From a virus, in the IMG/VR virus record IMGVR_UViG_3300011116_000448, positions 3,346 to 67,345 of that record: DNA of 64,000 nt; one strand, written 5' to 3'. The first letter of the stretch is position 1. The number at the start of each line of letters is the position of its first letter. Below the pieces are notes generated by a model. The model was not told the DNA's origin and did no database searches. It saw nothing but the letters and a program-made list of their open reading frames with translations. The position numbers were made by a program, and so were the translations under genes. This document shows positions 1,028 to 20,162 of this stretch, in pieces.

Positions 1028-1030
1028 CTC

Positions 1031-3034: not shown

Positions 3035-3043
3035 ACCCCTTAC

Positions 3044-5642: not shown

Positions 5643-6217
5643 CTACATTAATCTCTGACAATATGAAATATTTGAATGAAGAGCTGCACACACGTATGCA
5701 AAAGTACGGAACATCAGCTTATAAAAATCTGGATAAAATTATTCCCCCTTTTATTCAGAAGTACAGTATCAAGGAGATACTTGACTACGGTTGTGGAAAG
5801 GGTACTCTACGGGCTGCTCTTGTGCAGATGCGAGCACCTATTAAGGTTGTCAACTATGACCCTTGTATGCCTGAGTTTAGTGTACGGCCAGAGGGTACTT
5901 TTCAAAGCGTCCTTTGCAATGATGTTTTGGAACATGTAGAGCCAGAGTTTCTAGACAATGTCCTTCAAGATATTCTTAACTACGGTAAAGACTATTATTA
6001 CCTGAGCATTGGGCTTACTGAAAGCAAAAAGAAGTTGGCAAACGGACAGCAAAACCATCTGATTGTAGAAAACTCTGAATGGTGGAAAATGCGGCTTGTC
6101 AATAACGGCTTTAGAATTCTCGAAACTTTGGAAGACGAAAGTAATCCAAGTCATCCTGAACAAAGACTTTACATTGTAATTTGCAAGAAAGAAGAAGATA
6201 CAAATTATGGCAATTAA
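5639..6217 (+). CDS. class I SAM-dependent methyltransferase
   Basis: ILDYGCGKG motif I, YDP, DVLEHVEP; GTG start overlapping the upstream stop. Confidence 0.88.
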   Translation: MTTLISDNMKYLNEELHTRMQKYGTSAYKNLDKIIPPFIQKYSIKEILDYGCGKGTLRAALVQMRAPIKVVNYDPCMPEFSVRPEGTFQSVLCNDVLEHVEPEFLDNVLQDILNYGKDYYYLSIGLTESKKKLANGQQNHLIVENSEWWKMRLVNNGFRILETLEDESNPSHPEQRLYIVICKKEEDTNYGN

Positions 6218-6920: not shown

Positions 6921-7651
6921 TTAATATCTGCACCTTCTTTTGGGATGATCCGAATGCAAAGCACACCAACAACTACGCCTTTACCTCTAAACACGTTAAC
7001 CGACTCGGTCGTGCCCTACGAGAAAATCTTACGATCCCTTATGAATACACAGTTATTACTGAGGATCCCGGCGGCATTGACGTTGGCCTCGCCCGTGTGG
7101 TTCCTCTTTGGAACGAGTTCAGGGATCTTGGTAGGTGTTTTGTTCGTTTGCCTTTTTATTCTGAGTCTGTGCGGTCTGTTCTTGGTGACCGTATTGCAAA
7201 CATTGACCTCGATGTTGCTATTATTGGAAACGTCGATCACATCTTTGGAAGAAAAGAGCCTTTTGTAGGGTATAAGGATACCAAGAACCCCCGTTGCTAC
7301 TCAGGTGCCTTCTACATGATGGATACAGGAGCCAAGGCTCAGGTGTACAACTCGTTCAAGCGCATGTATCACATGATCCCTAGCGACGTACGTCAGCAGG
7401 TCTTTAAAACTGAATACAACAAGCTTAGTCCTTTTGTTGGCTCCGATCAGTCGTGGCAGACAGAAGTCCTTGGTGTAGGTCTTCCAAAGATTACTCAGGA
7501 AGATGGTGTTTGGGACTACTGGTCAATTGAACATCTACCAGAGCCTCCAGCTAACGCTAGGATCGTCTTTGTCAATGGAATGACCCGGGACGTTAGTATG
7601 CCTTCGTTCCATGCCAAGCATCCTTGGATGGATAAGTATTGGAATAGTTGA
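6917..7651 (+). CDS. GT-A fold glycosyltransferase
   Basis: V.RL...L.ENL, IDLDVAIIGNVD (DxD), GSDQSW, ARIVF motifs; ATGA overlap with the upstream gene. Confidence 0.8.
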   Translation: MINICTFFWDDPNAKHTNNYAFTSKHVNRLGRALRENLTIPYEYTVITEDPGGIDVGLARVVPLWNEFRDLGRCFVRLPFYSESVRSVLGDRIANIDLDVAIIGNVDHIFGRKEPFVGYKDTKNPRCYSGAFYMMDTGAKAQVYNSFKRMYHMIPSDVRQQVFKTEYNKLSPFVGSDQSWQTEVLGVGLPKITQEDGVWDYWSIEHLPEPPANARIVFVNGMTRDVSMPSFHAKHPWMDKYWNS

Positions 7652-7652
7652 T

Positions 7653-8594
7653 ATGAGACAGCCAAGCGGACTAGTTAAGAATGCTTCAGACGGTATGGGT
7701 ATCAAGGTAACTCCTAGGGACTCAGTGCCGACTGAAGAAATCGTCAAGAACGCCGTAGAGAATATGGACTTGATGCCCAAGGACTGCTTTGTAACCAAGT
7801 CAAAGATCAATGACGACACAGCTTGGATTGCCAGTGCAGGACCTTCCCTTGAACGTAATTTGCGTCTTGGCTATTTGAAGCCGGAGTGGTTTGCCGATGG
7901 ACAACCTAATAGACTCTTCACAGTTAAACATGCTCTACCAACGTTGGCTAAGTACGGGCTGCGACCACACTTTTGCGTTGTGTTGGACCCTCGACCCATC
8001 CAAGGGGTTAGTACTCACGGACATATCCGAGAAACTCTTTACTCCAAAGCCCCTAAGTCCACCAAGTTCCTTGTAGCGTCCATGACGCATCCAAGCGTCA
8101 CCAAGTGGCTCATTCGTAACGGCTACGAGGTGTTTGGGTGGCACAGTGCAGCCAACGGTCTGGTTCCTACCAAAGACAAGCCAAGCCCACTAAAGGACGT
8201 AAATGCCTTTGTACAGGGCGGTACGTGCAGTGCTACGCGTACTATTTCTCTTTCTCACTTTCTTGGCTTTCGCAAGGCCAATCTTATTGGATTTGACTCT
8301 TCACTTGCAGGTGATCCGATCAATCCAAATGAGACAGACACAATTGATGGCGCACCCGTCAAAAAGTACTGGAAGACTGCTGTAGGCGGTTCACGAGAGT
8401 TTTGGACTACGGGTGAGCTTATTGCCCAGCTTCAGGACTTGGAGATGTTCTTCACTGATCCAATTGCCGATGTGGAACTCAGCATGATTGGTACCGATAA
8501 AGATGACTCTCTTGCTGGAGCATTGATGGAGACAATCCCAAACAAGACCAAGTTGAACTCTTACAAGAGTATTTTTGGACCGTGGAAAGCATGA
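7653..8594 (+). CDS. Maf/DUF115 (MptE-like) family putative glycosyltransferase
   Basis: IASAGPSL, P.F.VVLDPR, LVAS..HP, GG.CS..R...L..FLGFR...LIGFDS motifs typical of DUF115/motility-associated factor proteins. Confidence 0.75.
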   Translation: MRQPSGLVKNASDGMGIKVTPRDSVPTEEIVKNAVENMDLMPKDCFVTKSKINDDTAWIASAGPSLERNLRLGYLKPEWFADGQPNRLFTVKHALPTLAKYGLRPHFCVVLDPRPIQGVSTHGHIRETLYSKAPKSTKFLVASMTHPSVTKWLIRNGYEVFGWHSAANGLVPTKDKPSPLKDVNAFVQGGTCSATRTISLSHFLGFRKANLIGFDSSLAGDPINPNETDTIDGAPVKKYWKTAVGGSREFWTTGELIAQLQDLEMFFTDPIADVELSMIGTDKDDSLAGALMETIPNKTKLNSYKSIFGPWKA

Positions 8595-9340
8595 AGACTC
8601 ATCTCGTTATTGGAGATGCCCACTCAAATCCTAAGGTAGACAACCGAAGGTTTGATTGGCTTGGTAATTTTATTGAGGACAAACGTCCTGACGTAATCAT
8701 TGACATAGGAGATTGGGGTGACTTCGATTCCATCGGAAAATACAATAAAGGTACTGGAGACGCGTGGAACTCAACATATAAAGATGATCTTGAGTGCTAC
8801 CATGATGCATCGCGACGCGCTTTTGGACGAATTGCCCGCATTAGAGGATATAAACCACGTATCATCCGCATTGGTGGAAATCATGAAGAGGGACGAATTG
8901 ATTCTTTTGTTAAACAGAATCCTGAGTTCAAGGGCACAATATCAGTTCACGACTTACGAGTTTCGGATTTCGGAGGGAAATATACAGCATTTCGTGATGT
9001 CGCCGTCGTGGATGGGATTGCCTACAGCCACTACTTCTACGACAAGGACTCCAGATACTCCATAAGCACTGCTCGTGCTGTCCTTAACAAGAAGCATATG
9101 TCCTGTACTTGGGGTCATTCCCACATCAGAGATATGGCTGAAAGCGTCAGTGCAGACAAGCGTAGAGTTATTTCACTTAATGTGGGATGCTACCTTGACC
9201 CAGACCAGCAGATGGGTTACGCTGGTCCCCAAGGTAACGCTAGATGGTGGTCTGGTCTGGTACTGAAGCAAAACGTAAACAAGGGATCTTACGATCCTCA
9301 ATTTTTTGGCATTGATTACATAAAGAGGCACTATGCTTAA
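8591..9340 (+). CDS. calcineurin-like metallophosphoesterase
   Basis: GDAH, GDWGD, GNHE and GHSH motifs. Confidence 0.9.
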   Translation: MKTHLVIGDAHSNPKVDNRRFDWLGNFIEDKRPDVIIDIGDWGDFDSIGKYNKGTGDAWNSTYKDDLECYHDASRRAFGRIARIRGYKPRIIRIGGNHEEGRIDSFVKQNPEFKGTISVHDLRVSDFGGKYTAFRDVAVVDGIAYSHYFYDKDSRYSISTARAVLNKKHMSCTWGHSHIRDMAESVSADKRRVISLNVGCYLDPDQQMGYAGPQGNARWWSGLVLKQNVNKGSYDPQFFGIDYIKRHYA

Positions 9341-9584
9341 CATCGCTATGTTCACTAAGGCTGTCCTGATTGTTATTGTCTTTCACACTAACGGAGAGAC
9401 GGGTACGATGATGCGGCAGTTTGACACTATTGAAGAGTGCAGGGGTGCTGCTGACGAAGCCATGAAGGCTATGGCAACTATTGACGAGATTAAAGATGGT
9501 GTCGCTCTATGTACTACTCGCGTCAAGCTTTTGACAGACGACAACGGTAGGGAGCTTGGAATTGAAGCGTCACTTCACCGTTAA
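9333..9584 (+). CDS. hypothetical protein with hydrophobic N-terminus
   Basis: GAGG SD, overlap with the upstream stop, F.T.EEC...C pattern. Confidence 0.6.
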   Translation: MLNIAMFTKAVLIVIVFHTNGETGTMMRQFDTIEECRGAADEAMKAMATIDEIKDGVALCTTRVKLLTDDNGRELGIEASLHR

Positions 9585-9840
9585 ACTGGATCTGGACTAT
9601 TACGACGATCCAGAGGCAGACAAGGAGCGAGAGCGGGCTATCCGTACAAACTCTTTACCTGTGCCTGTAGGAGGCTTCTGGAGGTACTCTATATCTGAGA
9701 TTAAACACGGGGAGGACAACAAAGACTTGGCCCTCCACAGCGTACTTCAAATCGAAGATAAAACCCTTAAAGGTCTACTGAAAGACTTGTTTAACAGACT
9801 GCCTAGGTACCTTGAAGAACAAGGTTTGCGAAAGGATTAA
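9556..9840 (+). CDS. hypothetical protein
   Basis: TTG start after GGGAG; fills the operon. Confidence 0.55.
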   Translation: MELKRHFTVKLDLDYYDDPEADKERERAIRTNSLPVPVGGFWRYSISEIKHGEDNKDLALHSVLQIEDKTLKGLLKDLFNRLPRYLEEQGLRKD

Positions 9841-9849
9841 TACGCTAAA

Positions 9850-10224
9850 ATGAACGAACTTCCTAAGTTTCCCGCTACTCGTGAAGATGCTTCTTTTAAC
9901 TGGAAAAGTTGGTTTGAAGAAACCCGTAAGCGTCTGGTGGAAGGACCTAAACCGTATGTCCCAACGCCTGTCGCTCCTTCCCTTGGTGATAAGAATGTAA
10001 GTCTCTTTTACGGGACTTTTGAAGACGACGAAGACATTGAGGAAATCAGCCTCAAGCATGAAGAATATCGGACGTACATGTATGGAAATGGTGTAGAATT
10101 GACCATCCACGAGCCCACTTGGCTCATTATTGACAAGACAGATGCCACTAAGCATATTGTCGAAAACGCCACCTCGGTGTACGAGATTACTCCGGGTTGG
10201 ATTGCAATCAAAAAGGGATACTAA
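9850..10224 (+). CDS. hypothetical protein
   Basis: 124-aa ATG ORF in the operon. Confidence 0.6.
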   Translation: MNELPKFPATREDASFNWKSWFEETRKRLVEGPKPYVPTPVAPSLGDKNVSLFYGTFEDDEDIEEISLKHEEYRTYMYGNGVELTIHEPTWLIIDKTDATKHIVENATSVYEITPGWIAIKKGY

Positions 10225-10232
10225 GCACTACA

Positions 10233-10484
10233 ATGGCCGCAAAGCGTAAAAGAGACTATGCCAAGGAGTACCGGGACTACCACGCCAAGCCTGAGCAGAT
10301 TAAGCGCAGGGCTGGACGTAACAAGGCCCGTGACATCATGGAAGATAAGGGTCTTGTTCACGAAGGTGACGGTAAGGATGTAGATCACAAGAACCGTAAC
10401 ACCCTTGATAACGATGAGGAAAACTTGCGTGTACAGTCACGACGACGAAACAGAGCAAGAAACTCTCACCGCAAAGGAAGTTAG
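10233..10484 (+). CDS. small HNH-type endonuclease
   Basis: RDYAKEY...KRRAGRNKAR...GDGKDVDH.......N...NLRV....NR: common phage HNH protein. Confidence 0.8.
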   Translation: MAAKRKRDYAKEYRDYHAKPEQIKRRAGRNKARDIMEDKGLVHEGDGKDVDHKNRNTLDNDEENLRVQSRRRNRARNSHRKGS

Positions 10485-10728
10485 GGAACTTTATGGGGCT
10501 CACCCTTTTGTCCTTCTGGTACTGAAGGGTGGGCCTAAACATAAAAACAAACGACTTCGAAAGCGGTATGAGCTTACCGTTATTCAAAAGCCTCCAAAGA
10601 AACCTCAAAAGAAAAAAGTCTCGCACGCACAAAAACTAGTGCAAAAAAGACGTAAGCAAAAGCTAGAGAACTACAAGAAAGTCTCCTATTTGCTGAAGAA
10701 GAAAAAAGAAAGCAAGAAAAGTGAGTAA
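10405..10728 (+). CDS. very lysine-rich hypothetical protein (possibly nucleic-acid binding)
   Basis: Open frame covering otherwise empty DNA with a stop overlapping the next GTG; start unclear. Confidence 0.35.
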   Translation: MITMRKTCVYSHDDETEQETLTAKEVRELYGAHPFVLLVLKGGPKHKNKRLRKRYELTVIQKPPKKPQKKKVSHAQKLVQKRRKQKLENYKKVSYLLKKKKESKKSE

Positions 10729-11008
10729 TACCTACTTTAAGTCAGTTTGCTCTGAAGGTTTCCTCATCCTGTACGGGGATATGAAGAAGCCTACAAAGGC
10801 CTACGTCATTGGTGTCGTGTATGATGCTAGTGACGCTGATGTCTTTGTAAAGGCTCTTATTACAACGGGCAAGACCATTGAAGAGCCAAGTGAAGAGGAG
10901 TTGCTTCGTGAAGAACCTGTTGAAGATCTTGTTGACGAACTTGAACGCGGTCTTTCGTTCAATAATGCCATCGGAGAAAGCTATGACTCAAGTGAATGGG
11001 CCCGATAA
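10721..11008 (+). CDS. acidic hypothetical protein
   Basis: GTG ORF packed between neighbours. Confidence 0.55.
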   Translation: MSNTYFKSVCSEGFLILYGDMKKPTKAYVIGVVYDASDADVFVKALITTGKTIEEPSEEELLREEPVEDLVDELERGLSFNNAIGESYDSSEWAR

Positions 11009-11639
11009 GCCCCCTTACGCCTATCTTTGTGATACTTCAAAAGAATTTGTAGAAGCCATCAAGCGGGTAGAGAACAACCTTAGTTCTGCCAAGAAGCGGG
11101 GCGAATACAAGCAGGTTAACGGCAACGGGGAGTGGAGGTGGTTCCCCGGTGCTTCCCCCGAAGGTGGGCTTCCTACGCTTGCGTGGGGTCACAAACTGAC
11201 CTCAAAGGAATGGGCTGACAAGAAGATCTGGTTTACCGAACCTACGTTGGGCACCAAGGTGTTTAAGGACTTCCGTTACGGACTAACTGACGCACAGGTC
11301 GAAGCTGTGCTTAAGGATGACCTGAAAGAAGCTGAAGACCTTGCCATGTCTGATTGGAACAAGTATCTTGGTTGGGAACAGAAAAAGCCCTTTGAAACCC
11401 TTCCAGACAAGTACAAGGGTGTCCTTATCAACCTTGTCTTTAACGCAGGTAGCCTTGCCAAGAAAGGTAAGTTTATCTGGACTACAGTGGCTCGCGGCAT
11501 CCTTCAGGGTGACGATACGGTGGTCACAAAGGGTATGGTGACCTCTTACAAGCGCCCTGATGGCAGGCGTGTGCAGTTGACCACACGAGCTATTGAGATT
11601 GCCAAAGGGCTTGGGTTGCCTTGGCAGGTGCTTAAGTAA
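10983..11639 (+). CDS. endolysin, phage lysozyme-like (GH24/T4-type fold)
   Basis: IKRVE (catalytic Glu candidate), SPEGG.PT.AWGHKL, L..DL..AE, L.NL.FN.G; GGAG SD before ATG 10983. Confidence 0.75.
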   Translation: MTQVNGPDKPPYAYLCDTSKEFVEAIKRVENNLSSAKKRGEYKQVNGNGEWRWFPGASPEGGLPTLAWGHKLTSKEWADKKIWFTEPTLGTKVFKDFRYGLTDAQVEAVLKDDLKEAEDLAMSDWNKYLGWEQKKPFETLPDKYKGVLINLVFNAGSLAKKGKFIWTTVARGILQGDDTVVTKGMVTSYKRPDGRRVQLTTRAIEIAKGLGLPWQVLK

Positions 11640-11736
11640 TCAGTGAGGACGGCCCCCATACGCTTTCGTGTGTATGGTCTCCGCCGTGACATCTCAAGAC
11701 CTAGGGGCCGCTCGTGGACTGATACACGCCTTAGGC

Positions 11737-11768
11737 CACCGGAGTTGATCGCCCGGTGCATTTCTTTT
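11737..11768 (+). terminator. putative intrinsic terminator at the convergence of the two arms
   Basis: CACCGG/CCGGTG stem followed by CATTTCTTTT. Confidence 0.45.
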
Positions 11769-11769
11769 G

Positions 11770-12414
11770 TTATTGGGTAAAGTGGATCACACCATTCCAC
11801 CCAATAATATCCCCGGCAAAGTTACGGGCAGGTGTGGCAATAGCGTGGACTTTAACTGGCTGATTGGTTGTCAAGTTGTGCAATCGGTAGTGCAAGTTAA
11901 AGTCCCGCTCTTGGTCTATTGCACGTTCCCACTCTCTAGTAACAATATCCCGGTCTTCTGGGTAGATAACATTCTCCCAATTGTTACCCACAAAGTCTGC
12001 CATAGAGCCTCCTACAGCCTTACGAAGGGCGTCATTGACCCAAGAATAGTTACCCTTCCTGTCGCAAGCCCAAACCCCTTGGTTGATTGTATCCAGCAGC
12101 AAAAGACGTTCAGCTTGACTGATACTGACAGCAGTCTCCAACCTGTTCAACTGGTCCTTGATTGAAGAACCCCCATTGGGTTTCAGTTCCTTGATAATCT
12201 CGTCAAGCTTACCCCCAAGTGTTGACTCCAAAGCGTTCAATCTTGTTGGGGACTTATAGATACTTGCAACAAGATCTATAACTGGCTTAACGGTACTGTT
12301 ATACATAGGAACTGCCACCTGATTGTAGAATGCAAATAGTATGGTTAAAAACGTAAGAATCGAACCCACAAAGACAATGTCAAAGTGTTCTTTTAAGTAG
12401 TTGAAGTAGTCCAT
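11770..12414 (-). CDS. membrane-anchored PAS-domain protein
   Basis: N-terminal TM (IVFVGSILTFLTILFAF), ELKPNGGSSIKD linker, PAS/PAC motifs (GVWACD..G....VN.A, G..WE.VI.PED, R......V.A.P.....G.I.GW.G). Confidence 0.8.
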   Translation of the reverse strand: MDYFNYLKEHFDIVFVGSILTFLTILFAFYNQVAVPMYNSTVKPVIDLVASIYKSPTRLNALESTLGGKLDEIIKELKPNGGSSIKDQLNRLETAVSISQAERLLLLDTINQGVWACDRKGNYSWVNDALRKAVGGSMADFVGNNWENVIYPEDRDIVTREWERAIDQERDFNLHYRLHNLTTNQPVKVHAIATPARNFAGDIIGWNGVIHFTQ

Positions 12415-12422: not shown

Positions 12423-15400
12423 TTACTCTTTGTCCCGTGTCAAGATATTCTGGTAACGACGTTCTTGTTGTGTAGGCTTTTTGATCTTTCCCGGATTCTT
12501 TTTCTGCCACAGACGTTCCTGAACGCTTGAGCGGAAACCTCTCCAGAAGTTAGAATCAAGTCTGATGCCGTTAGCTTTAGCGTATTCACGCAAATCTTTG
12601 GTGACATCCGCCCGCATCTCTCGACCCTCTTGGTATTTTTCATTGTCATCTTGAGTTGACCCCAAATACATAAGGTACTCAGCCGTTGCTACGCGCTCGG
12701 CCAAACGGGACTTCCACCCAGTAAACTCTTGGTTGGCGCGCTGCTGCATGTACAGACGTTCACGTTCTTGTGTCTTCTCAAGGGGCGTAAAGCCCGTAAG
12801 CTGACCAAGTACGTCAAACGGCCTAGTTCCATCCTCATTAGTATCTTTGAGTATTTTACCAGACTTGGTTTTCCAGTAATTTTCAGGCTCAGTAACCATT
12901 TGAGCCGTCTTAGCCACGTCCTTGCCAACCGAAGGCATAAAGGGCTGGATCTTCTCCAAAGCTGACTTGCTTGACGATCCACTGAGTACGTCAGCCGCAC
13001 CGTTCATCATTTCTACAAGGGTACGTCCGGGAACACCCGTAATCTCACCAATCTTGATTTCATCCTTCAGAAGGCCCATAAGAAGGTTTTGCCCAATAAT
13101 GTCCTGTGAAAGACGAGAACTCATGTCCAAGCCAAAGGTTGTGGACAGAGCACCCCTGCGCAAGAACTCAGGCATACCAGCGGCTTCAAGCTGCATGTTC
13201 AGGTCTACCATACGCCCATTAACCTTTTCCTCGTATTCTTCGTACAAGGTCTTCCAAAGGTCGTAGGCAGGAATACCGTTAAGCCCTGAGAAGGCCACGT
13301 AGGCACCCATTGTATATAGGCCTGCTAGGACACCCGCTGCTCCCTTTTTGGCCGTCATTTGCTCAAATAGAAGCTCTAGCATCTGCTGTGGGTAGGTCAT
13401 GAAGGGGAATGCCAACGTACCGAACAGACCACGCTGCATGGGGCCACGCCCCGTCTTGCCAAACTCAGCGTGAACAAGACGCATGTGGTAAAGAGCCATT
13501 GCGTCTTCAACGTCCATTTTGGTTTTGTTGGTGTCCCAGAAATATTGCCAATCGTAGTCCGTAGCAAGGTCTTTAATGGCCTTACGGGTAATCTCAGGGG
13601 AGTCTTTAAACATATCCCTGAAGGCAATAAATGTCGACTTACGAGTAAAGTTTTCAGTGTTGCTAACAAAGAAGCCCGCGTTGTTCTTGATGAAGTTAAA
13701 GCCCTTTTCAGCCTGTTTAGCACCGGGACCAAGGTGGCTGATATAGTCAGTGTTGATTTCCTTGGCAATAGCGTCTTCAGTCATGGACTGCCGGAAGTAG
13801 CCCGGATGAGCGTTAAAGAACTCACTGTTCTTGTCCCCCGGCTGCATCTTTACCAACTTACTGATACCCTTGCTAAGGTAGGACATGGCACTCAAAGGAT
13901 TGCCTGTGTAACCTACAAGCACACCTGCGGCTTGTGTGGGTAGGGTTGCAATCTGCAACATAGCAGTAGATAGACGGTATCCCATGGTCCAGAAGAAGTT
14001 AAAGTTGCGCAAAGCTCCGTAGTCAGTGCTTGGGTTAAGCATGTAATCTACATAGTTGTTAGCGTACTTTTTCAGTTCAGGAGCAACCTTGTCACTTAAG
14101 ACAATGTCTTTTTGAGCCGCAGCAAGTTCCATCGCTGTGGCTTTACGAGCAATAGAGTTCTTAAAGGTGTTCTTGTACGCATCCATGACGTGATCCCAAT
14201 CACGAGAGTATCCTGAAATAACAGGTTCGTCTTGAGCACGCATAAGGTATTTGCCTTTACCCTGTGCAAGGACATACCGCATGATGTGGTTCTTGGTTGA
14301 ACCTGCATCTTCGGACCAAGCTTTCATAAAGCTTTGCGGATCTTTAACCCCAGTGGCAAGCATGTGTGCCAATTCAATGTTACGCTCAAGTCCCGTAGCG
14401 TTAAGGCTCTGGATAAGCTCCATCGACAGCATACCCTTTTGGATAAGCTTGGCGGCAGAGTTGTAGGTCAACTGACCGTGAGTAAGTTCAAAGTCCTTTG
14501 GGTCGTACTTCTTGCGAAGCCCAAGCTTGTCAATCTTTTGGTCAGCGTGCTTCTTTGACGGAAGCGCACTGGTCTTAAGTCCAAGAAGATTGTCAGTGTT
14601 GTCAAGAACTTCCATGTGGACAAGATTCCCTGTCTTTCGATCCTTGACCCAAACAACGTAGTCACCGAACCGCATGTGTGGAATGTAGGCTACATCTCTG
14701 GCAAGCAAAGCTTCACTGTGCTTTAGCTGATCGTGGAATTCCTGCAGCATGTCACGGTCCCTGACGTACTTGTTACGGAACTCAGGCAGCGGGTTGTTCT
14801 TGATAAGCTTTTCAATGTTGTCAATTGTATCCTGCAAATGAAGCAACGAAGAGTCCTTACCTACGTTGTACTCCTTGCGGAAGTGCTCTAAAAGCTCGCG
14901 AGTAACAGACATGTCTTCGCGAATACCGACCTTAAAGAAGTCAGACACACCCTTGACAATGTCAGAGTCTACCTTTGAAAGAACTACGTCGGCATCATTC
15001 TCATCCTTGAACACAATACGCCCTTGAGTATCTTCCTTGATACCTTGCTTGGTGTTTCGAAGATGGTCAATAATATCGCCTGCTCGAATAATTTTATCCA
15101 TGTCCTTGTTTGCAAGATCCTTGTAGACGTAGTCAAACTGCTTTGTGAACGCAAGGTCGATGTTTGCGGCAACGTCCTTTTGCTTAACAAAAATGTTATG
15201 GACACGCCCGATGATAGGATGCTTGCGGGCCATCTTGGCTACGGAGAACAGGAAAGACATAGCCCCACCAGCGGTACCAATGTTGTTGGCTTCACTACGC
15301 AAGAATGGATCGTTGGAATCTCGTCCAGATCTTGTCTGAGGGTCTTTGAAGTTAGGCGGAGGTGAGCTTGCACCAGCTTCAGTAGCAGCTTCCTTAATCT

Positions 15401-18400
15401 CCTCAACCTTTACTTCAGCCTGTTCCTGCTTAGGTCTGTTGACCTCATCAAGGACACGATCTGCAAATACGTTGGGGCGGCGAGCCTCTGGCGGAACTTC
15501 CCTTGAGTTCTGTTCAAAGACCTCAGGACTGTCGTTGTACTCAAGAATGTCATCAAGTTTTTTGTAGCCAATGTCAGCAAACTCTTTATTCAATTGCTTG
15601 AAAGACTTTTCAAAAGCACTGAAAATCTTCTTCTGTTTGATGTCCTTGAAGTCCTTGATGTTGACGTTTAAATCGCCCTTAAGGTACTTGGCAAAGGCCA
15701 TAGCCTCCAAGTCCTCTGTACGGAAAGTACCAAGGTCTTTGGGGTTTACACCTTCCTGTGCACCATACCATTCACTGAAGAATTGCCTATTCTTGTTCAA
15801 AGCATCAATGGTCTTATCCGGAAGGAACTGCCGCATGTTCTTGTACCAAGTTGCCAACGCCTCTTCGTTAAGGTTCTTTGGTTTGTTGATGTTGAAGGCT
15901 GTGTGCAGCGAGGTCAACATGGCGTTAAACGTAGCCTTGTCCATCTCCTTACCCGAAAGCATCTTGTCAAAGCTTTGGCGGAATAGCTTGGACAAGCTAG
16001 GATGAACCTTGTTAAATGCGTTCTCAATTGTGTTGAGGAGCTTCACGCGGTTCATTACCTGCTCAGAGAACTTCTTGGTAGCCCTCATGATACGCGGCTT
16101 TTCACTGACCTTGACGTTGGCAGACATCTCAGCAAACTTCTTGAACATTTCATTCAAGGCTGGCCCAAGGTCTGGATTACGCTTAAGGAAGTCTGCGTTA
16201 CGTTCCATGGCAAGTTTGTCAACTTCGTCGTGAAGCTGGTTTAGAATCTGTTCAGACACGTCACTAAGTTTAGCTCTTTGTGGTGCTCTAGGCGTGCCTT
16301 TAAATGCCTTGGGGTCGTACCTAAATTCACCGGGCTTGGGTGAAGTATCAATAGTGTCAGCAAGCGTATCAGAGATAATAGGCTTGTTACGCTCTTTCCA
16401 GTAGCGATTGGCAATTCGACGCAGTTCATCCGTTGTCGTGTGCTTGTCTTCCAACATTCGCTTAAACAACGGAGACCTAAGAAGAGCTTCAATAACCTGA
16501 CTCTTCTTCAACTTTGGTGTAGCATTAGGTCCCGGCATGGTTGCAGCCTTGGCAAGAGCCTCTGCTGTCTGTGCGGGTTTGTATTCAAGCAAACCACGAA
16601 TAGCCATAGGATCACTTCGCATACCCGCGTAAGGACCAAAAGCTTCACCGTCAACAGGAGGTTCTTCAATAAACTTCCCACCGCGCGAAGTTACCTTATC
16701 AGGAGCCTTGGGGTAAATATCTTTAACACCAGTACTCTCGTTACGGCGCTGGATACGTACGTTTTCTTCTTGAACCTCTTTAAGCTTCTGTTTGTACTCC
16801 TTCAAAGCCTTGCGGTAGTCTCGCATGTCGGCTTCGTACTTTTTTGTAGCTTCTTTTGCACCAGCCCATTTCATTTCAGTAGAGGTAGGTGCGATAGGTT
16901 TAACAGGCTCTACTGGAAGGTCTAAGAGTTTTTGCTTAGGCACAGGCCCAGTTCTAAATACCTCAGATGGCTTTGCTTCGCTTTTAAAGTACTTACCCTT
17001 TTCAGGGATAAGAAGCCCATCAATCAATCCTGAGTTATTGAGTTCACTGCCCCATTTTTGCCCCACAGAAATACGAACTGGTGCGTGCGTGTACCCAAGC
17101 TCTTTAAGCGCCTGAAGCCTGTGATTACCTTCTCCAAGCTTGGCAGTACGAGAATCTGCACCCACGTTAACGATAAGAGGATTGTTTAGACCATTCTCCT
17201 GAATGTCCTTTTTTAACGCCTCCATTTCCTCGCGTGTCATCCGAAGTTTGTTCCCTTTGATTTTCTCAAGAAACTCAATAGGCACGTCTTCAATATATCG
17301 CGCGTAATTGTCCATGTCACTACGCTTACGTGTATTACCATCAAGGTCCTTCCAATAAGAACTTCTTTTTGGAGAACGAGGAACTCTATCCTCTCCGTAG
17401 AACGGTTGATTAATCGGAGGATTGCCGGGGCGCTTACGAATAAGTCCGTACTTGCTGGGTTTGATTACATCGTGATTAAATACAATAAATTGATCGCTTG
17501 TAGGTAGATCACTGAAAGGCATACGACCTTCCACATGTTCTTCGTATGAAGCAAAACCCTCTCTAATATCCAAAGCGTCGATATTGAGTTTTTGTAGCTT
17601 TGCCTTCATTTCGGCCATGCGCGCTCTTTGATCTGCAGCAGTGACCTTAGTACCTGCTTCATCTACACTGTCAAAATCAACAGCAAAATCTCTCATCATC
17701 TGATCTACGGCATCTTGTTTACGTGGCTTTGTTGTAGGGAATACCTGATGATCCATAGCAGTGCCATCAGGATGTACCCAAAAATCAGGATTACCTTTTT
17801 CACCACCAAAACGCGTATCGTCAAACTTGCGCATTGGTTCAGACATTCGATCTGTATAGCCGAGCATTTTAGCCAAACGCTGGGCATCTTCAAAAGTTTT
17901 AATTGTGAAGATACGCGCTGAAGGTTTAAGAAATGCCTTAATCTTTTCGGGATACGCTACGGCACGACGTGCTTCTGCATCTTGATCAAACCAGAATGAA
18001 TTAGGATTCTTTGAGAAATACGAAGAAAAATCACCAAATTCACTATAGTAATAAGCGCGTTTACCTGTCTGCGGATTAAATTCACCTGACTCATCAATAG
18101 CCTTGGCAGAATCAGGCATAGTACCGTGGTAAAGAATAATGGGTGCTCCATCATCAAAATGCGAAATAACATCCTCAGGACGTGCACCTTTTGAAGCGGC
18201 ATATTGTTTCTTTTCAGCTTCACTGCGACGTTTGTTCATCAACGTCTCTGCCAGCTTCTTACGGGGATTCTCACTAAGCATCTGGTTGGCAGCTTTGATG
18301 TTCTTGTTGATGCGCTCTTGGGCATCTGGACGCTTGTAGATTGAGCCGTACTGCTGTACGTCTTCCATCACTTTCTTGTCTACAAAGTTTTCAAAGTCTT

Positions 18401-20162
18401 CCATCACTTTCTTGCGAATCTCGTCAGGATACTTAGCACCTGCCTTATCAAGATCGCGCTGGACGTTAATACGATATAGCTTGTTGATCATATCGTCGGA
18501 GAAGTTACGGACAACTGTATCCTGATAACCAAACTGGTCAGTCAAAGCTGCCGCCTTGGTCAAGATCTTTTCGTCGTTGGAGTGTACCTGCGGCTGGTCG
18601 TCAATGTCTTTGTACATCACGCCATTAGGTGTACGCTTAAGGAAAGACTCACGCGAACGAACAAAGCTAGCCTTACGGGCTGCTTCAATAAGATCCCTGT
18701 CGCTTGGGGGTCTATTTAGATTTGTTTCAAAGTGGTTATAAAGATCACTGAGACCGTCGCGCTCCTCACCCTTCTTATCCTTGTACTTGATATTGCGAAG
18801 GTACTCAGCAGCCTGTACACGATCCGTAATACCGTAGTCGGCGTTAGGATCACGAATGATACCGCTTACCGGAGGAGGAAGAGCCGCCTGAGGTGTAGTC
18901 TGGTCGTACCCATAAATGATGTCTTCCTTCATGGTAGACGCAGCTTCGCTTACGGGACGCTCTGGACGAGGGTCTCCAAGGAAAGACGAATCAATAGGCT
19001 GGACAGGTGTCTTGGGTTTTGGCTGGTAACGATAGCCTTTGTAAAGACCAAAAGGCACACCTACAAGAGTACCCATGACCCCGGCATTGAAGTACTCGGC
19101 CTTGGCTTCGTCATCCAAAAGAGGCATATCGGCGTTCATGCGGGACAGGGCAGAAGTACCCATACCTACAAAAGCATTAGTACCTGCCACGTCAGCCATA
19201 TTGCCGAGGAGGCGTGTACTCATCTTGGACCCAAGGTCTACACCCCACTTTTCAAGGGTGTTAAGGACGGGTCCAGCAAAAATAATGGAGTCCACAGGAA
19301 TGGCCTGCAGTCCCGCTGCTACGGTCCCTAGGGTAGCTGCCTTGGTCCAATCAATGTGATCCTTGGGGTTCTCTACCCCCTGCTCTTTAAGGGCCTGAAC
19401 CTGCCTGTCAGCGAACTGGGCGATGGTTACGGGCGCAGTGACACCTGCAGCCCCAAAGAACGACCCTAGACGGGCAGCAGCGGTACCAGCCTTCATACCC
19501 GCTGATCCTGCCGCAAGGTAACCACCAGCACCACCACCAGCCAACGCTAGGCCCATGTAGGGCGCTCCTGCACCTATGGTCTGAAGGGCAAAGTCGTACA
19601 GCTTACCTTGGTCCCAAGCTGACTGAACGTCAGGGACAGTAAACTGACCGTAATTCTTTTGATAATCATTCTTAAGTTGGTCGGCGTATTCGTGCCATTC
19701 CTTGCCAAGGTTCTCCATACCCACTCCCTCAAGACTATAGGCTAGGGCACTGGAAAGCTCACTGGGCATACTGTAAAGGGTGGCACCTTTGGCTGCACCC
19801 CAAATACCGGGAGAGTTGTGGTCCCAGATGGCCTCCAGAACCTCCTCAGGCGTCTTGTCAGCGGGGGCATTGTACCGCTTACCGTCACCCGCAAACTCAT
19901 AGATAATCGTGTTAGGGTCCTTGCTAGAAGGTCCTACGGGCTTAAGAATCTGGTCAGGGGAATCTACTCCAAAGAACTGCTTGGAGAAAGCTTGGGGTTC
20001 ACCCGAAGAGGAACTACCTACTGCTGGCTCTTTACTTCTCTCGTTGAGTACCCCAAGGATTGATTCGTTAAAAGGGTCTGGATTCTGCCTCTGCGGGAAC
20101 GTAGCCTGCATGGCATTATCGACAACCCCTTGTGCAAAGGGACTCAACGGATCTGTAGCCAT
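12423..20162 (-). CDS. giant virion ejection/polyvalent protein containing ADP-ribosyltransferase-like and ParB/Srx-like domains
   Basis: 2579 aa, GGAGG SD, last large gene of the virion arm; Gly/Ala-rich hydrophobic N-terminal region; LYHGT...YFS...QFIVF (ART-like); DI.ENGL.NPL.V...EGNHRLQALKELG...PV (ParB-like). Confidence 0.75.
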   Translation of the reverse strand: MATDPLSPFAQGVVDNAMQATFPQRQNPDPFNESILGVLNERSKEPAVGSSSSGEPQAFSKQFFGVDSPDQILKPVGPSSKDPNTIIYEFAGDGKRYNAPADKTPEEVLEAIWDHNSPGIWGAAKGATLYSMPSELSSALAYSLEGVGMENLGKEWHEYADQLKNDYQKNYGQFTVPDVQSAWDQGKLYDFALQTIGAGAPYMGLALAGGGAGGYLAAGSAGMKAGTAAARLGSFFGAAGVTAPVTIAQFADRQVQALKEQGVENPKDHIDWTKAATLGTVAAGLQAIPVDSIIFAGPVLNTLEKWGVDLGSKMSTRLLGNMADVAGTNAFVGMGTSALSRMNADMPLLDDEAKAEYFNAGVMGTLVGVPFGLYKGYRYQPKPKTPVQPIDSSFLGDPRPERPVSEAASTMKEDIIYGYDQTTPQAALPPPVSGIIRDPNADYGITDRVQAAEYLRNIKYKDKKGEERDGLSDLYNHFETNLNRPPSDRDLIEAARKASFVRSRESFLKRTPNGVMYKDIDDQPQVHSNDEKILTKAAALTDQFGYQDTVVRNFSDDMINKLYRINVQRDLDKAGAKYPDEIRKKVMEDFENFVDKKVMEDVQQYGSIYKRPDAQERINKNIKAANQMLSENPRKKLAETLMNKRRSEAEKKQYAASKGARPEDVISHFDDGAPIILYHGTMPDSAKAIDESGEFNPQTGKRAYYYSEFGDFSSYFSKNPNSFWFDQDAEARRAVAYPEKIKAFLKPSARIFTIKTFEDAQRLAKMLGYTDRMSEPMRKFDDTRFGGEKGNPDFWVHPDGTAMDHQVFPTTKPRKQDAVDQMMRDFAVDFDSVDEAGTKVTAADQRARMAEMKAKLQKLNIDALDIREGFASYEEHVEGRMPFSDLPTSDQFIVFNHDVIKPSKYGLIRKRPGNPPINQPFYGEDRVPRSPKRSSYWKDLDGNTRKRSDMDNYARYIEDVPIEFLEKIKGNKLRMTREEMEALKKDIQENGLNNPLIVNVGADSRTAKLGEGNHRLQALKELGYTHAPVRISVGQKWGSELNNSGLIDGLLIPEKGKYFKSEAKPSEVFRTGPVPKQKLLDLPVEPVKPIAPTSTEMKWAGAKEATKKYEADMRDYRKALKEYKQKLKEVQEENVRIQRRNESTGVKDIYPKAPDKVTSRGGKFIEEPPVDGEAFGPYAGMRSDPMAIRGLLEYKPAQTAEALAKAATMPGPNATPKLKKSQVIEALLRSPLFKRMLEDKHTTTDELRRIANRYWKERNKPIISDTLADTIDTSPKPGEFRYDPKAFKGTPRAPQRAKLSDVSEQILNQLHDEVDKLAMERNADFLKRNPDLGPALNEMFKKFAEMSANVKVSEKPRIMRATKKFSEQVMNRVKLLNTIENAFNKVHPSLSKLFRQSFDKMLSGKEMDKATFNAMLTSLHTAFNINKPKNLNEEALATWYKNMRQFLPDKTIDALNKNRQFFSEWYGAQEGVNPKDLGTFRTEDLEAMAFAKYLKGDLNVNIKDFKDIKQKKIFSAFEKSFKQLNKEFADIGYKKLDDILEYNDSPEVFEQNSREVPPEARRPNVFADRVLDEVNRPKQEQAEVKVEEIKEAATEAGASSPPPNFKDPQTRSGRDSNDPFLRSEANNIGTAGGAMSFLFSVAKMARKHPIIGRVHNIFVKQKDVAANIDLAFTKQFDYVYKDLANKDMDKIIRAGDIIDHLRNTKQGIKEDTQGRIVFKDENDADVVLSKVDSDIVKGVSDFFKVGIREDMSVTRELLEHFRKEYNVGKDSSLLHLQDTIDNIEKLIKNNPLPEFRNKYVRDRDMLQEFHDQLKHSEALLARDVAYIPHMRFGDYVVWVKDRKTGNLVHMEVLDNTDNLLGLKTSALPSKKHADQKIDKLGLRKKYDPKDFELTHGQLTYNSAAKLIQKGMLSMELIQSLNATGLERNIELAHMLATGVKDPQSFMKAWSEDAGSTKNHIMRYVLAQGKGKYLMRAQDEPVISGYSRDWDHVMDAYKNTFKNSIARKATAMELAAAQKDIVLSDKVAPELKKYANNYVDYMLNPSTDYGALRNFNFFWTMGYRLSTAMLQIATLPTQAAGVLVGYTGNPLSAMSYLSKGISKLVKMQPGDKNSEFFNAHPGYFRQSMTEDAIAKEINTDYISHLGPGAKQAEKGFNFIKNNAGFFVSNTENFTRKSTFIAFRDMFKDSPEITRKAIKDLATDYDWQYFWDTNKTKMDVEDAMALYHMRLVHAEFGKTGRGPMQRGLFGTLAFPFMTYPQQMLELLFEQMTAKKGAAGVLAGLYTMGAYVAFSGLNGIPAYDLWKTLYEEYEEKVNGRMVDLNMQLEAAGMPEFLRRGALSTTFGLDMSSRLSQDIIGQNLLMGLLKDEIKIGEITGVPGRTLVEMMNGAADVLSGSSSKSALEKIQPFMPSVGKDVAKTAQMVTEPENYWKTKSGKILKDTNEDGTRPFDVLGQLTGFTPLEKTQERERLYMQQRANQEFTGWKSRLAERVATAEYLMYLGSTQDDNEKYQEGREMRADVTKDLREYAKANGIRLDSNFWRGFRSSVQERLWQKKNPGKIKKPTQQERRYQNILTRDKE

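What the first reader, a model, noticed from the sequence alone, without database searches (positions are those of the whole stretch)
11770..12414. Membrane-anchored PAS sensor with a holin-associated-looking linker, facing the endolysin
Seen: one TM helix, a coiled segment with ELKPNGGSSIKD, and a complete PAS/PAC domain with no kinase, GGDEF or HTH output. It is the last gene of the late arm and converges on the endolysin. From memory (unverified), the PNGGSS.KD motif occurs in small membrane proteins of phage lysis cassettes. Inference: a ligand- or redox-sensing holin/antiholin that tunes lysis timing, or a decoy that heterodimerises with host PAS kinases. An output-less PAS protein in a lytic phage late operon is unusual.
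Basis: partly seen in the sequence, partly recalled or inferred. Interest (0 to 1): 0.75.

Follow-up and report, generated by a model that had tools for sequence, protein, structure and literature searches.

The report
Phage membrane-anchored PAS sensor, lysis-linked module
This phage gene fuses a small membrane module, which other phages carry beside their cell-bursting genes, to a PAS sensor domain, so the phage may time host lysis by sensing the cell's internal state, though no function has been tested.

Summary
Window 11770-12414 (-) encodes a 214-aa protein with one N-terminal TM helix, an invariant ELKPNGGSSIKDQLNRLE segment (res 76-93), a PAS domain (res 105-211) and no output domain. 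It is the last gene of the structural arm and converges on a probable lysozyme.

The TM+motif part belongs to phrog_9869, a very large family of 41-166 aa phage membrane proteins (1176 representative clusters, a few of them false). In 4 of 5 cultured actinophages examined, the member sits directly beside the annotated endolysin or holin. Metagenomic members often sit beside peptidoglycan hydrolases.

The PAS fusion is not a one-off. A profile found 219 clusters; the 120 best listed are 177-230 aa. Flank charges in 22 of 25 sequences predict N-out/C-in, so the PAS domain is cytoplasmic. The motif-to-C-terminus distance is nearly fixed.

Gene contexts of PAS-fused members are mixed. Some are lysis-like; others lie next to RNR, portal, ligase, sigma-factor or cyclase genes.

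Best reading (about 0.4): a holin-like or lysis-timing membrane protein gated by a cytoplasmic PAS sensor. The function is inferred from synteny only. DUF2746 does not match. My searches found no paper describing the motif or the fusion.

The parts
11770..12414 (-). Gene for the 214-aa TM / PNGGSS-motif / PAS protein (P0001); the stop codon is 11770-11772
   Evidence: There are 21 relatives of 195-229 aa with the same architecture. A profile search finds 219 clusters; the 120 best listed are 177-230 aa.
12310..12384 (-). N-terminal transmembrane helix, about res 11-35
   Evidence: Hydropathy maximum of 2.26 over res 11-29. The AF2 model has a long helix at 13-65. Across 25 diverse PAS-fused relatives, K+R in the flanks average 0.56 (N side) against 2.92 (C side); C>N in 22 of 25 and never reversed. 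This predicts N-out/C-in.
12136..12189 (-). Invariant juxtamembrane module ELKPNGGSSIKDQLNRLE (res 76-93), modelled as helix-loop-helix
   Evidence: phrog_9869 E 2.6e-8 and phrog_15431 ('holin') E 9e-5. Invariant columns are listed. The profile of small homologues hits here at E 6.2e-14. The AF2 loop at 77-83 has pLDDT below 50.
11782..12102 (-). PAS domain (res 105-211), predicted cytoplasmic, with no output domain after it
   Evidence: Pfam PAS_4, PAS_3 and PAS above cut-off. Mean pLDDT 90-95 over the blocks covering res 111-210. Foldseek to PAS/LOV/ARNT structures. A PDB profile search hits ARNT PAS-B at E 6e-5.
12423..20162 (-). Upstream 2579-aa gene (virion/ejection-module protein with a ParB-N-like segment); its stop lies 8 nt before the PAS gene's ATG
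   Evidence: Matches: phrog_6958 virion structural protein, ParB-like PHROGs at res 945-1036, Pfam ParB_N at E 0.0045.
10878..11639 (+). Convergent probable lysozyme-type endolysin, last gene of the + arm; the true start is probably an internal ATG
   Evidence: Pfam Pesticin E 0.0098 and phrog_7 endolysin E 0.0012. ESM-Atlas score 0.92, with 21 of 30 hits in Phage_lysozyme clusters. No PDB sequence hit.
11640..11769 (.). 130-bp convergent intergenic region with a stable stem-loop; possible two-way terminator without a T-run
   Evidence: RNA fold -46.1 kcal/mol, z -2.0, with 4 of 200 shuffles folding as well. The consensus terminator scan found nothing here.

Best explanation
The gene encodes a single-pass inner-membrane protein with its short N-terminus outside and its bulk in the cytoplasm.

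Its first ~95 residues are the TM helix plus helix-PNGGSS-helix module of a very large family of small phage membrane proteins (phrog_9869). These proteins sit inside or beside lysis cassettes. Its last ~110 residues are a PAS domain, joined at a nearly fixed distance from the motif.

Most likely it is a membrane component of this phage's lysis machinery: a holin-like protein or holin partner of the single-TM, N-out/C-in type. Its assembly or triggering would be gated by what the PAS domain senses in the infected cell's cytoplasm (redox or energy state, or a small ligand), which would set lysis time.

Shown: the architecture, the family membership, the conservation, the predicted topology, and the synteny of the small relatives with endolysins and holins.

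Inferred: that the module acts in lysis, that this fused member still does, and that the PAS domain gates it.
For: (1) The module matches phrog_9869 (E 2.6e-8) and the 'holin'-labelled phrog_15431 (E 9e-5).

(2) Cultured members of phrog_9869 lie in lysis cassettes. In mu1/6 the order is endolysin gp50, holin gp51, gp52 (gp52 matches phrog_9869 at E 2e-32). In Sonali it is gp22, endolysin gp23 (GH25+LysM), holin gp24. In P1312, gene 040 overlaps the start of amidase 041. In TurkishDelight it is endolysin gp35, holin gp36, gp37. That is 4 of the 5 cultured phages found; the fifth has unannotated neighbours.

(3) In the 78 IMG/VR loci with a complete small gene (of 80 kept), one neighbour cluster of 50 proteins (phrog_32486, about 141 aa) lies 1-2 genes upstream in 48 cases. 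Its AF2 model (pLDDT 91) best matches the zinc-binding C-terminal domain of S. pneumoniae VldE (E 3e-4, TM 0.52/0.62). Recalled, not from a call: VldE is a peptidoglycan L,D-endopeptidase. Other loci have Peptidase_M15_4 at +1 (L068, L077) or a CHAP endolysin at +2 (L061).

(4) Some PAS-fused relatives occupy the same slot. L084 reads tail protein, 110-aa gene, PAS gene, 2-TM 111-aa gene, GH19 endolysin. L095 reads PG_binding_1 protein, 69-aa hydrophobic-N-terminus gene, PAS gene. L100, L103, L105 and L107 are followed at a 2-bp gap by a 69-78 aa gene; the three I translated (L100, L103, L105) have 1-2 predicted TM segments. L098 is followed by a TM plus charged helical protein.

(5) In the window, the PAS protein is the only protein with a predicted TM helix next to the probable lysozyme. 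It carries the only copy of the module in the record.

(6) Flank charges predict N-out/C-in in 24 of 25 small and 22 of 25 PAS-fused proteins. LysF1b has this same predicted topology: a single-TM holin-like protein whose deletion disrupts mycobacteriophage lysis (PMC13056207, abstract and section 14 read).

(7) The motif-to-C-terminus distance is 127-153 residues across 25 diverged fusions, while the TM-to-motif spacing varies from 14 to 56. This suggests the motif and the PAS domain are mechanically coupled.
Against: No functional datum exists for any member of phrog_9869; PHROGs itself labels it 'unknown function'.

The synteny counts are not independent. Most of the 78 small-gene loci come from one phage lineage.

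Only 2 of 26 PAS-fused loci have a recognisable peptidoglycan-hydrolase or PG-binding gene within two genes (L084, L095). The others sit elsewhere:
- after ribonucleotide reductase (a lineage of 8 loci; RNR confirmed in the 3 scanned)
- before the portal gene
- after DNA ligase
- after a sigma factor
- after a patatin
- after an ankyrin / nucleotide-cyclase protein

In the window the gene is not in an operon with the lysozyme. It ends the structural/ejection operon on the opposite strand, and the lysozyme call itself is weak.

No curated holin family in Pfam matches. The phrog_32486 peptidase assignment rests on one structural match; sequence profiles gave nothing.

For the close clade of P0001 the flank charges alone are ambiguous: 0.95 against 1.68 K+R, with C>N in 12 of 22.
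Confidence: 0.4

Rival explanations
1. It is a membrane-anchored cytoplasmic PAS sensor or adaptor with no role in lysis. On this reading the TM+PNGGSS module is a general membrane-tethering or host-factor-docking unit. The PAS domain would modulate host or phage signalling, for example by heterodimerising with host PAS proteins or by partnering a phage enzyme.
For: The contexts of PAS-fused genes are heterogeneous and mostly not lysis-like. In L094 the gene directly follows an ankyrin-repeat protein with an adenylate/guanylate-cyclase domain (Pfam 25.7 bits against a cut-off of 21.9). The PAS fold is closest to signalling PAS/LOV/ARNT domains, which work through dimer contacts. A phage-encoded PAS receptor that controls a phage decision is known: VqmA of vibriophage VP882 (PMC8284805, search listing and start of abstract only).
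Against: The module's small relatives are tied to lysis cassettes in cultured phages. The motif is conserved far more strongly than a simple tether would require. No partner gene is consistently adjacent.
Confidence: 0.3
2. It is a membrane guard, for example a superinfection-exclusion or anti-defence protein made late in infection. It would use the PAS domain to detect a second infection or a host defence signal.
For: Small single-pass phage membrane proteins with cytoplasmic tails often act this way (general knowledge, not tested here). The varied genomic positions resemble those of accessory genes.
Against: I did not scan the PADLOC defence library, and nothing in the PHROG or Pfam results points to exclusion. 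The synteny of the small relatives points to lysis.
Confidence: 0.1
3. It is an accessory of the virion or DNA-ejection module, co-translated with the giant internal protein. It would act at the host membrane during genome entry or during assembly.
For: It is the last gene of the structural arm. It starts 8 nt after the 2579-aa gene, which follows a 1600-aa 'DNA ejection protein' (phrog_4287). L092 and L094 also place the gene after a large protein matching phrog_9049, a profile of 4700 positions.
Against: Most relatives are not next to structural genes. A protein with an N-terminal membrane anchor and a cytoplasmic PAS domain is an unlikely virion component. The small relatives lie in lysis cassettes.
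Confidence: 0.08

Closest known systems
phrog_9869 small phage membrane proteins (e.g. Streptomyces phage mu1/6 gp52, Arthrobacter phage Sonali gp22, Thermobifida phage P1312_040, Streptomyces phage TurkishDelight gp37)
   Same: They share an N-terminal single TM helix, basic residues after it, and then the invariant (E/H)L(K/H)PN(G/S)G(S/G)S(I/L)(K/R)D..NR(I/L)E segment. Homology is shown by profile matches.
   Different: Most are 41-166 aa, end in a short helix or a low-complexity tail, and lie directly beside the endolysin or holin (TurkishDelight gp37 is 184 aa). The window protein has a longer TM-to-motif spacer (49 residues), carries a C-terminal PAS domain, and faces the probable lysozyme from the opposite strand. 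None has a tested function.
LysF1b-class holin-like proteins of mycobacteriophages (Girr gp35, NormanBulbieJr gp33; LysA2b of D29)
   Same: They have one N-terminal TM, a predicted N-out/C-in topology and an extended helical cytoplasmic part. They act in lysis together with a second membrane protein (PMC13056207, abstract and section 14). The D29 homologue is encoded away from the lysis cassette, after the tape measure gene (preprint 10.64898/2026.08.27.747656, start of abstract in the search listing only).
   Different: No sequence relationship was tested, because I held no LysF1b sequence. tblastn with P1312_040 (a phrog_9869 member) found no mycobacteriophage record. The paper reports no conserved motif among LysF1b-like proteins. 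LysF1b has a highly charged tail, not a PAS domain.
Holins with a globular regulatory domain (T4 holin T with antiholin RI; the phiKZ type III holin)
   Same: The concept is the same: a single-TM holin whose soluble domain receives a signal that shifts lysis time. This is recalled for T4. The phiKZ holin's globular cytoplasmic domain is mentioned in PMC13056207, section 14.
   Different: The topology is opposite (N-in/C-out) and the folds are unrelated. Neither has the PNGGSS motif or a PAS domain.
VqmA of vibriophage VP882 (phage-encoded PAS receptor)
   Same: It is a phage-encoded PAS-domain protein used to sense a cellular or community signal and steer a lysis-related decision (PMC8284805, search listing only; details recalled).
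   Different: VqmA is a soluble transcription factor with a DNA-binding output domain. The window protein is membrane-anchored and has no output domain.
Short (output-less) PAS/LOV proteins and ARNT-type PAS-B domains
   Same: These are the best structural and profile matches for res 105-211.
   Different: No cysteine is conserved in the PAS domain of the family, so a LOV-type cysteine photo-adduct is excluded. The cofactor or ligand is unknown. These proteins are soluble.

Membership tests
phrog_9869 (TM + PNGGSS-motif small phage membrane proteins) | Profile match to the conserved motif segment | tested here: met
   phrog_9869 E 2.6e-8 over res 72-102. The profile of 25 small members matches at E 6.2e-14.
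phrog_9869 (TM + PNGGSS-motif small phage membrane proteins) | Single N-terminal TM helix followed by basic residues (N-out/C-in) | tested here: met
   TM at res 11-29 (hydropathy). K+R flanks favour C-in in 22 of 25 PAS-fused and 24 of 25 small members. For the close clade of P0001 alone the result is ambiguous, 12 of 22.
phrog_9869 (TM + PNGGSS-motif small phage membrane proteins) | Small size (about 40-170 aa) with no further domain | tested here: not met
   The protein is 214 aa with a C-terminal PAS domain. Of the 150 best representative hits, the genuine ones are 41-166 aa.
phrog_9869 (TM + PNGGSS-motif small phage membrane proteins) | Gene lies inside or beside the lysis cassette | tested here: inconclusive
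   The gene is adjacent to a probable lysozyme, but convergent and in another operon, and the lysozyme evidence is weak.
PAS domain (Pfam PAS_3 / PAS_4 / PAS) | HMM score above the curated cut-off | tested here: met
   PAS_4 38.8 bits (cut-off 23.1), PAS_3 35.7 (25.6), PAS 34.6 (22.6), all at res 105-211.
PAS domain (Pfam PAS_3 / PAS_4 / PAS) | PAS fold (beta-sheet core flanked by helices) | tested here: met
   The AF2 model has five strands (113-118, 123-126, 172-179, 186-197, 203-212) plus helices, with mean pLDDT 90-95 over res 111-210. Foldseek TM to target is 0.76-0.83.
PAS domain (Pfam PAS_3 / PAS_4 / PAS) | Bound cofactor or ligand | not testable with these tools
   This needs purified protein.
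LOV-type flavin PAS | Conserved adduct-forming cysteine | tested here: not met
   The only Cys in the PAS domain of P0001 (C117) is not conserved in the 22-sequence alignment. The conserved segment reads G-x-N-W-x-N.
Holin (functional class) | At least one TM helix, small size, gene next to an endolysin | tested here: inconclusive
   The TM helix and the adjacency are present, but the gene is convergent, the protein is larger than typical holins, and the endolysin call is weak.
Holin (functional class) | Match to a curated holin family | tested here: not met
   No Pfam holin family matched at E up to 10 for res 1-111. The only match is phrog_15431, labelled 'holin', at E 9e-5 over the linker.
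Holin (functional class) | Timed, energy-poison-triggerable membrane permeabilisation that releases endolysin | not testable with these tools
   This needs expression and lysis assays.
LysF1b-class single-TM holin-like proteins | One TM, N-out/C-in, extended cytoplasmic helix | tested here: met
   Flank charges. The AF2 model has helices at 13-65, 69-77 and 86-96. The class definition comes from PMC13056207.
LysF1b-class single-TM holin-like proteins | Sequence relationship to Girr or NBJ LysF1b | not tested
   I held no LysF1b sequence.
DUF2746 (PF10874) | HMM match | tested here: not met
   No match in the whole 67-kb record at E up to 10, and none in the Pfam scans.
Sensor kinase / GGDEF / HTH PAS signalling proteins | An output domain after the PAS domain | tested here: not met
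   The protein ends at res 214, and no further Pfam family matched.

The most novel reading that the evidence does not exclude
TM-PNGGSS-PAS proteins would be a widespread, undescribed class of sensor holins. They would be single-pass N-out/C-in lysis proteins in which a cytoplasmic PAS domain reads the infected cell's redox or energy state, or a metabolite. Through the rigidly spaced, invariant helix-PNGGSS-helix switch, the PAS domain would set when the membrane is breached. Lysis timing in many aquatic phages would then be condition-dependent rather than a fixed clock. The same invariant switch in more than a thousand clusters of small phage proteins would mark a new, cross-phylum core component of phage lysis.
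Probability: 0.25. Interest if true: 0.85.

Novelty: new variant of a known kind. Interest (0 to 1): 0.62.

Why it matters
Lysis timing is a central life-history trait of phages. Known ways of tuning it by signals are few: T4 lysis inhibition and quorum-linked switches.

A holin-type protein carrying a PAS sensor would give a direct route from the host's physiological state to burst time. It would also be directly testable, through expression, PAS deletion and cofactor analysis.

Independently of that, the work shows that one short, almost invariant motif joins hundreds of small uncharacterised phage membrane proteins. It links cultured actinophage lysis cassettes to freshwater and marine metagenomes. 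It also defines a uniform family of PAS fusions (at least 219 clusters) that databases currently label only 'PAS domain protein' or 'hypothetical'. That gives annotators a handle and gives experimenters tractable models (Sonali, TurkishDelight, mu1/6).

Tried and rejected
- blastn and tblastn of the region and of P0001 against 50,697 GenBank phage records found no match.
- DUF2746 (PF10874) and DUF7394 (PF24126) do not match the record. DUF7394 touched only two distant relatives, below its cut-off.
- A Pfam scan of res 1-111 at E up to 10 gave only a chance-level syntaxin hit.
- A word-indexed search restricted to res 58-104 added nothing new (10 proteins, all PAS fusions).
- A profile of phrog_32486-like neighbours found nothing in PDB sequences. 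hhalign against a Peptidase_M15_4 neighbour gave probability 1%. Only the structure comparison gave a lead.
- The giant hits of the motif profile (2263, 3284 and 797 aa with many repeats) are false positives; of these I read the 2263-aa and 797-aa sequences, in which an unrelated repeated ...SNGGS... unit is matched.
- Homodimer prediction for P0001 (2 copies, with alignment) gave 'no answer', score 0.03 against a mark of 0.42. This counts neither for nor against oligomerisation.
- ESM-Atlas on res 1-104 gave no usable hit.
- The gene downstream in L092 is not related to the window's lysozyme.
- My crude ORF calls around two Micromonospora prophage copies gave no Pfam hits.
- Full-text searches for the motif strings found nothing on the motif. 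Searches for PAS plus holin or lysis timing, phage-encoded PAS and PAS in freshwater viral contigs found no description of the fusion.
- I considered spontaneous Asn-Gly/Ser/His deamidation at the invariant N80 acting as a clock. I set it aside as too slow, from recalled peptide half-lives; it was not tested.
Full report
**What is there**

The window is an IMG/VR viral record (window = bases 3346-67345 of a 67,345-bp linear contig; CheckV completeness 70%). Its genes form three blocks:
- A + arm from 1 to 11639. It holds ribonucleotide reductase, nucleotide kinase, methyl- and glycosyl-transferases and a metallophosphoesterase. It ends in a probable lysozyme at 10878-11639.
- A - arm from 47882 down to 11770. 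It holds small and large terminase, a major head protein, tail proteins, a 1600-aa 'DNA ejection protein' and a 2579-aa protein with a ParB-N-like segment.
- A second + arm from 47973 onward, made mostly of small unknown genes.

The finding's ORF (11770-12414, - strand, 214 aa, P0001) is the last gene of the - arm. Its ATG lies 8 nt after the stop of the 2579-aa gene. Its stop lies 130 bp from the stop of the convergent lysozyme-like gene. The intergenic stretch folds into a stable stem-loop (z -2.0), but it has no T-run terminator.

**Checking the observation**

- TM helix. Hydropathy peaks at res 11-29 (mean 2.26).
- Motif. ELKPNGGSSIKD is at res 76-87 and continues as QLNRLE.
- PAS domain. 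Pfam places PAS_4, PAS_3 and PAS above their curated cut-offs at res 105-211. An AlphaFold2 model built on 22 relatives has mean pLDDT 90-95 over the blocks covering res 111-210. It superposes on solved PAS/LOV/ARNT domains at TM 0.76-0.83 relative to the target.
- No output domain. Nothing follows the PAS domain.

The motif loop itself is modelled at low confidence (res 77-83, pLDDT below 50).

The lysozyme assignment of the facing gene is only moderately supported. Pfam Pesticin scores E 0.0098 (below its cut-off) and phrog_7 'endolysin' E 0.0012. ESM-Atlas look-alikes score 0.92, with 21 of 30 in Phage_lysozyme clusters. A PDB sequence search found nothing.

**The N-terminal module is a widespread phage unit**

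Of these, 232 were confirmed relatives. In 79 of the 80 kept loci the match covers only the motif region.

The encoded proteins are mostly 53-121 aa as read from the first Met (a few ORFs are cut by a contig end). Each has one N-terminal TM helix, basic residues...ELKPN(G/S)GSS.KDQ.NRLE..., and a short C-terminal helix. An exhaustive profile search over 1.84 billion representatives found 1176 clusters at E <= 1e-3 and 176 at E <= 1e-10. The best 150 are almost all 41-166 aa. The few giant hits are false; of these I read the 2263-aa and 797-aa sequences, in which an unrelated ...SNGGS... repeat is matched.

PHROGs files these proteins under phrog_9869 ('unknown function'). P0001 matches it at E 2.6e-8. 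P0001 also matches phrog_15431, labelled 'holin', at E 9e-5.

**Where the small relatives sit**

tblastn with two small members and with P1312_040 found five cultured actinophages. I translated four of the proteins and checked three against phrog_9869: mu1/6 gp52 E 2e-32, P1312_040 E 3.7e-24, Sonali gp22 E 2e-17. All carry TM ... ELHPN(S/A)G(S/G/L)SLRDAV(N/D)R(I/L)E.

Their annotated contexts are:
- mu1/6: endolysin gp50, holin gp51, gp52.
- Sonali: gp22, endolysin gp23, holin gp24 (gp23 is GH25+LysM).
- P1312: gene 040 (mis-named 'sensory protein kinase CreC') overlaps the start of amidase 041.
- TurkishDelight: endolysin gp35, holin gp36, membrane protein gp37.
- Glutamicibacter phage BIM BV-113: only unannotated neighbours.

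So 4 of 5 lie directly in a lysis cassette.

Among the 78 IMG/VR loci with a complete small gene, one neighbour cluster (phrog_32486, about 141 aa, 50 proteins) lies at -1 or -2 in 48 cases. In addition:
- 17 loci have a 67-aa one-TM protein (phrog_37724) at -1.
- 45 have a 72-87 aa acidic protein at +1.
- 36 have a metallophosphoesterase at +2.

phrog_32486 has no Pfam or PDB sequence match. It does carry S-x-H ... A-x-D ... H-x-H columns that align with two Peptidase_M15_4 neighbours. Its AF2 model (pLDDT 91) best matches the zinc-binding C-terminal domain of S. pneumoniae VldE (E 3e-4, TM 0.52/0.62). I recall, from no call, that VldE is a peptidoglycan L,D-endopeptidase. I read phrog_32486 as a probable endolysin.

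Other lineages have Peptidase_M15_4 at +1 (L068, L077) or a CHAP endolysin at +2 (L061). These loci are heavily redundant (few lineages), so the counts describe contexts and are not independent events.

**The PAS fusion is a family, not a curiosity**

The first protein search gave 21 relatives of 195-229 aa with the same architecture. The metagenome scan gave 25 further loci; with L002 from IMG/VR that makes 26 loci encoding 154-221 aa proteins (one cut by a contig end) with TM, motif and a C-terminal PAS region. Pfam saw PAS families at E <= 0.01 in 20 of the 21 scanned.

A profile of 25 diverse members found 219 clusters at E <= 1e-5 among 6068 candidates. The 120 best listed are 177-230 aa. 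They come from freshwater and marine sources, on contigs of up to 134 kb. Sources name them only 'PAS domain...' or 'hypothetical'.

Across the 25 diverse members the invariant positions are P79, N80, G82, S84, D87, G121 and W146. The distance from the motif to the C-terminus is 127-153 residues, whereas the TM-to-motif spacing ranges from 14 to 56.

K+R counts in the 15-residue flanks of the TM helix average 0.56 (N side) against 2.92 (C side). C>N holds in 22 of 25 and is never reversed. For small members the figures are 0.2 against 2.96, with C>N in 24 of 25. By the positive-inside rule the family is N-out/C-in, so the PAS domain is cytoplasmic. For P0001's own close clade the charge signal alone is weak (12 of 22), and I rely on the wider family.

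No cysteine is conserved in the PAS domain, which excludes a LOV-type photocycle. The ligand remains open.

None of the loci I held, nor the window's record, carries a second copy of the module.

**Contexts of the PAS-fused genes**

The contexts are mixed.

Lysis-like contexts:
- L084: tail protein, 110-aa gene, PAS gene, 111-aa two-TM gene, GH19/phrog_181 endolysin.
- L095: PG_binding_1 protein, 69-aa gene with a hydrophobic N-terminus, PAS gene.
- L100, L103, L105, L107: the PAS gene is followed at a 2-bp gap by a 69-78 aa gene. The three I translated (L100, L103, L105) have 1-2 predicted TM segments.
- L098: followed by a TM plus charged-helix protein.
- The window itself.

Contexts that are not lysis-like:
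- A lineage of eight loci where the gene follows the ribonucleotide reductase subunits (confirmed in L087, L090 and L093).
- Loci where it precedes the portal gene (L085; L083 and L091 share the upstream phrog_3497).
- L082: follows DNA ligase.
- L002: follows a patatin-like phospholipase.
- L094: follows an ankyrin-repeat protein with an adenylate/guanylate-cyclase domain.

**How it most likely works**

The strongest single thread is homology of the N-terminal module to proteins that sit in lysis cassettes. It is combined with a predicted topology (one TM, N-out/C-in, helical cytoplasmic part) that matches the LysF1b class. In LysF1b, deletion severely disturbs lysis timing and burst size, and phages that make only LysF1b can be triggered early by energy poisons (PMC13056207; abstract and section 14 read, plus passages found by term search). 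A D29 homologue is encoded away from the cassette, after the tape measure gene (preprint 10.64898/2026.08.27.747656; start of abstract in the listing only). Position at the end of a structural operon is therefore not disqualifying.

I propose that P0001 is a holin-like protein or holin partner, and that its cytoplasmic PAS domain gates assembly or triggering through the rigidly spaced motif helix. The architecture, homology, topology prediction and synteny are shown. The lysis role and the gating are inferred. Confidence is about 0.4.

The main rival (about 0.3) is a non-lysis signalling or adaptor role. It is favoured by the heterogeneous contexts and by the cyclase neighbour in L094. Exclusion or defence roles and a virion or ejection role are less likely.

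**Comparison with what is known, and novelty**

The protein passes the sequence tests for membership of phrog_9869 and for a PAS domain. It fails the 'small, single-module' feature of phrog_9869. It matches no curated holin family in Pfam. It is not a LOV domain, a kinase, a GGDEF protein or an HTH protein.

My full-text searches found no paper describing the motif or a PAS-holin fusion. The nearest phage precedent for a PAS sensor is the soluble transcription factor VqmA of VP882 (PMC8284805, listing only). The supplementary alignments of LysF1b-like proteins in PMC13056207 could not be opened, and they might show whether any carries the motif.

I rate this a new variant of a known kind: single-TM lysis-cassette membrane proteins, here with a sensor domain. 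It sits in a large, unrecognised family.

**What did not help**

The homodimer prediction returned no verdict. ESM-Atlas had nothing for the N-terminal part. The other negative attempts are listed under Tried and rejected.

Noticed in passing
L094:7146-8927 (+), directly upstream of the PAS-fused gene at L094:8940-9578: A 593-aa protein with several ankyrin repeats and an adenylate/guanylate-cyclase catalytic domain (Pfam 25.7 bits, cut-off 21.9). It sits 13 bp before a TM-PNGGSS-PAS gene in a metagenomic phage-like contig and also matches the giant phrog_9049. This hints at a signalling pair.
   Followed up: partly
L164:3195-3638 (Thermobifida phage P1312, gene P1312_040): The gene is annotated 'sensory protein kinase CreC', but it encodes a 147-aa TM + PNGGSS-type protein of phrog_9869 (E 3.7e-24) that overlaps the start of the amidase gene. 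The annotation looks wrong.
   Followed up: yes
L021:9419-9844 and about 50 related genes (phrog_32486): This 'unknown function' PHROG carries S-x-H / A-x-D / H-x-H columns. Its confident AF2 model (pLDDT 91) best matches the zinc-binding C-terminal domain of S. pneumoniae VldE (recalled to be a peptidoglycan L,D-endopeptidase). It is probably an unrecognised endolysin family of freshwater phages.
   Followed up: partly
window 12423-20162 (-): A 2579-aa protein in the virion/ejection module has a ParB-N-like segment at res 945-1036 (several ParB-like PHROGs; Pfam ParB_N below cut-off). It follows a 1600-aa 'DNA ejection protein' (20188-24990).
   Followed up: no
window 28435-30018 (-): A 527-aa tail-region protein hits Pfam mtd_2nd (Mtd second domain) at 24.5 bits, just under the 24.6 cut-off. 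This may be an Mtd-like receptor-binding protein. I did not look for a diversity-generating retroelement.
   Followed up: no
window 54656-57871 (+): A 1071-aa early-arm protein has a C-terminal amidoligase-like segment (phrog_2443 and phrog_16683, res about 894-1035).
   Followed up: no
window 8582-9340 (+) and the +2 genes of 36 small-module loci: The same metallophosphoesterase family (phrog_221) occurs in the window's + arm and two genes downstream of the small TM-PNGGSS gene in many IMG/VR loci. This suggests shared ancestry of this gene neighbourhood.
   Followed up: no
window 11640-11769: The convergent intergenic region folds into a long GC-rich stem-loop (-46.1 kcal/mol, z -2.0) with no T-run. 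It may be a two-way terminator of a non-canonical type.
   Followed up: partly
P0038, P0039, P0089 (hits of the motif profile): Giant repeat proteins reach the top of the profile search (17, 27 and 10 matched stretches). In the two sequences I read (P0038, P0089) the match is to a repeated ...SNGGS... unit. This is a trap for anyone searching with this motif.
   Followed up: yes
L016 (IMG/VR contig, 8676 bp): Two near-identical copies of the 63-aa small gene lie on opposite strands of one short contig. This may be an inverted duplication or an assembly artefact.
   Followed up: no
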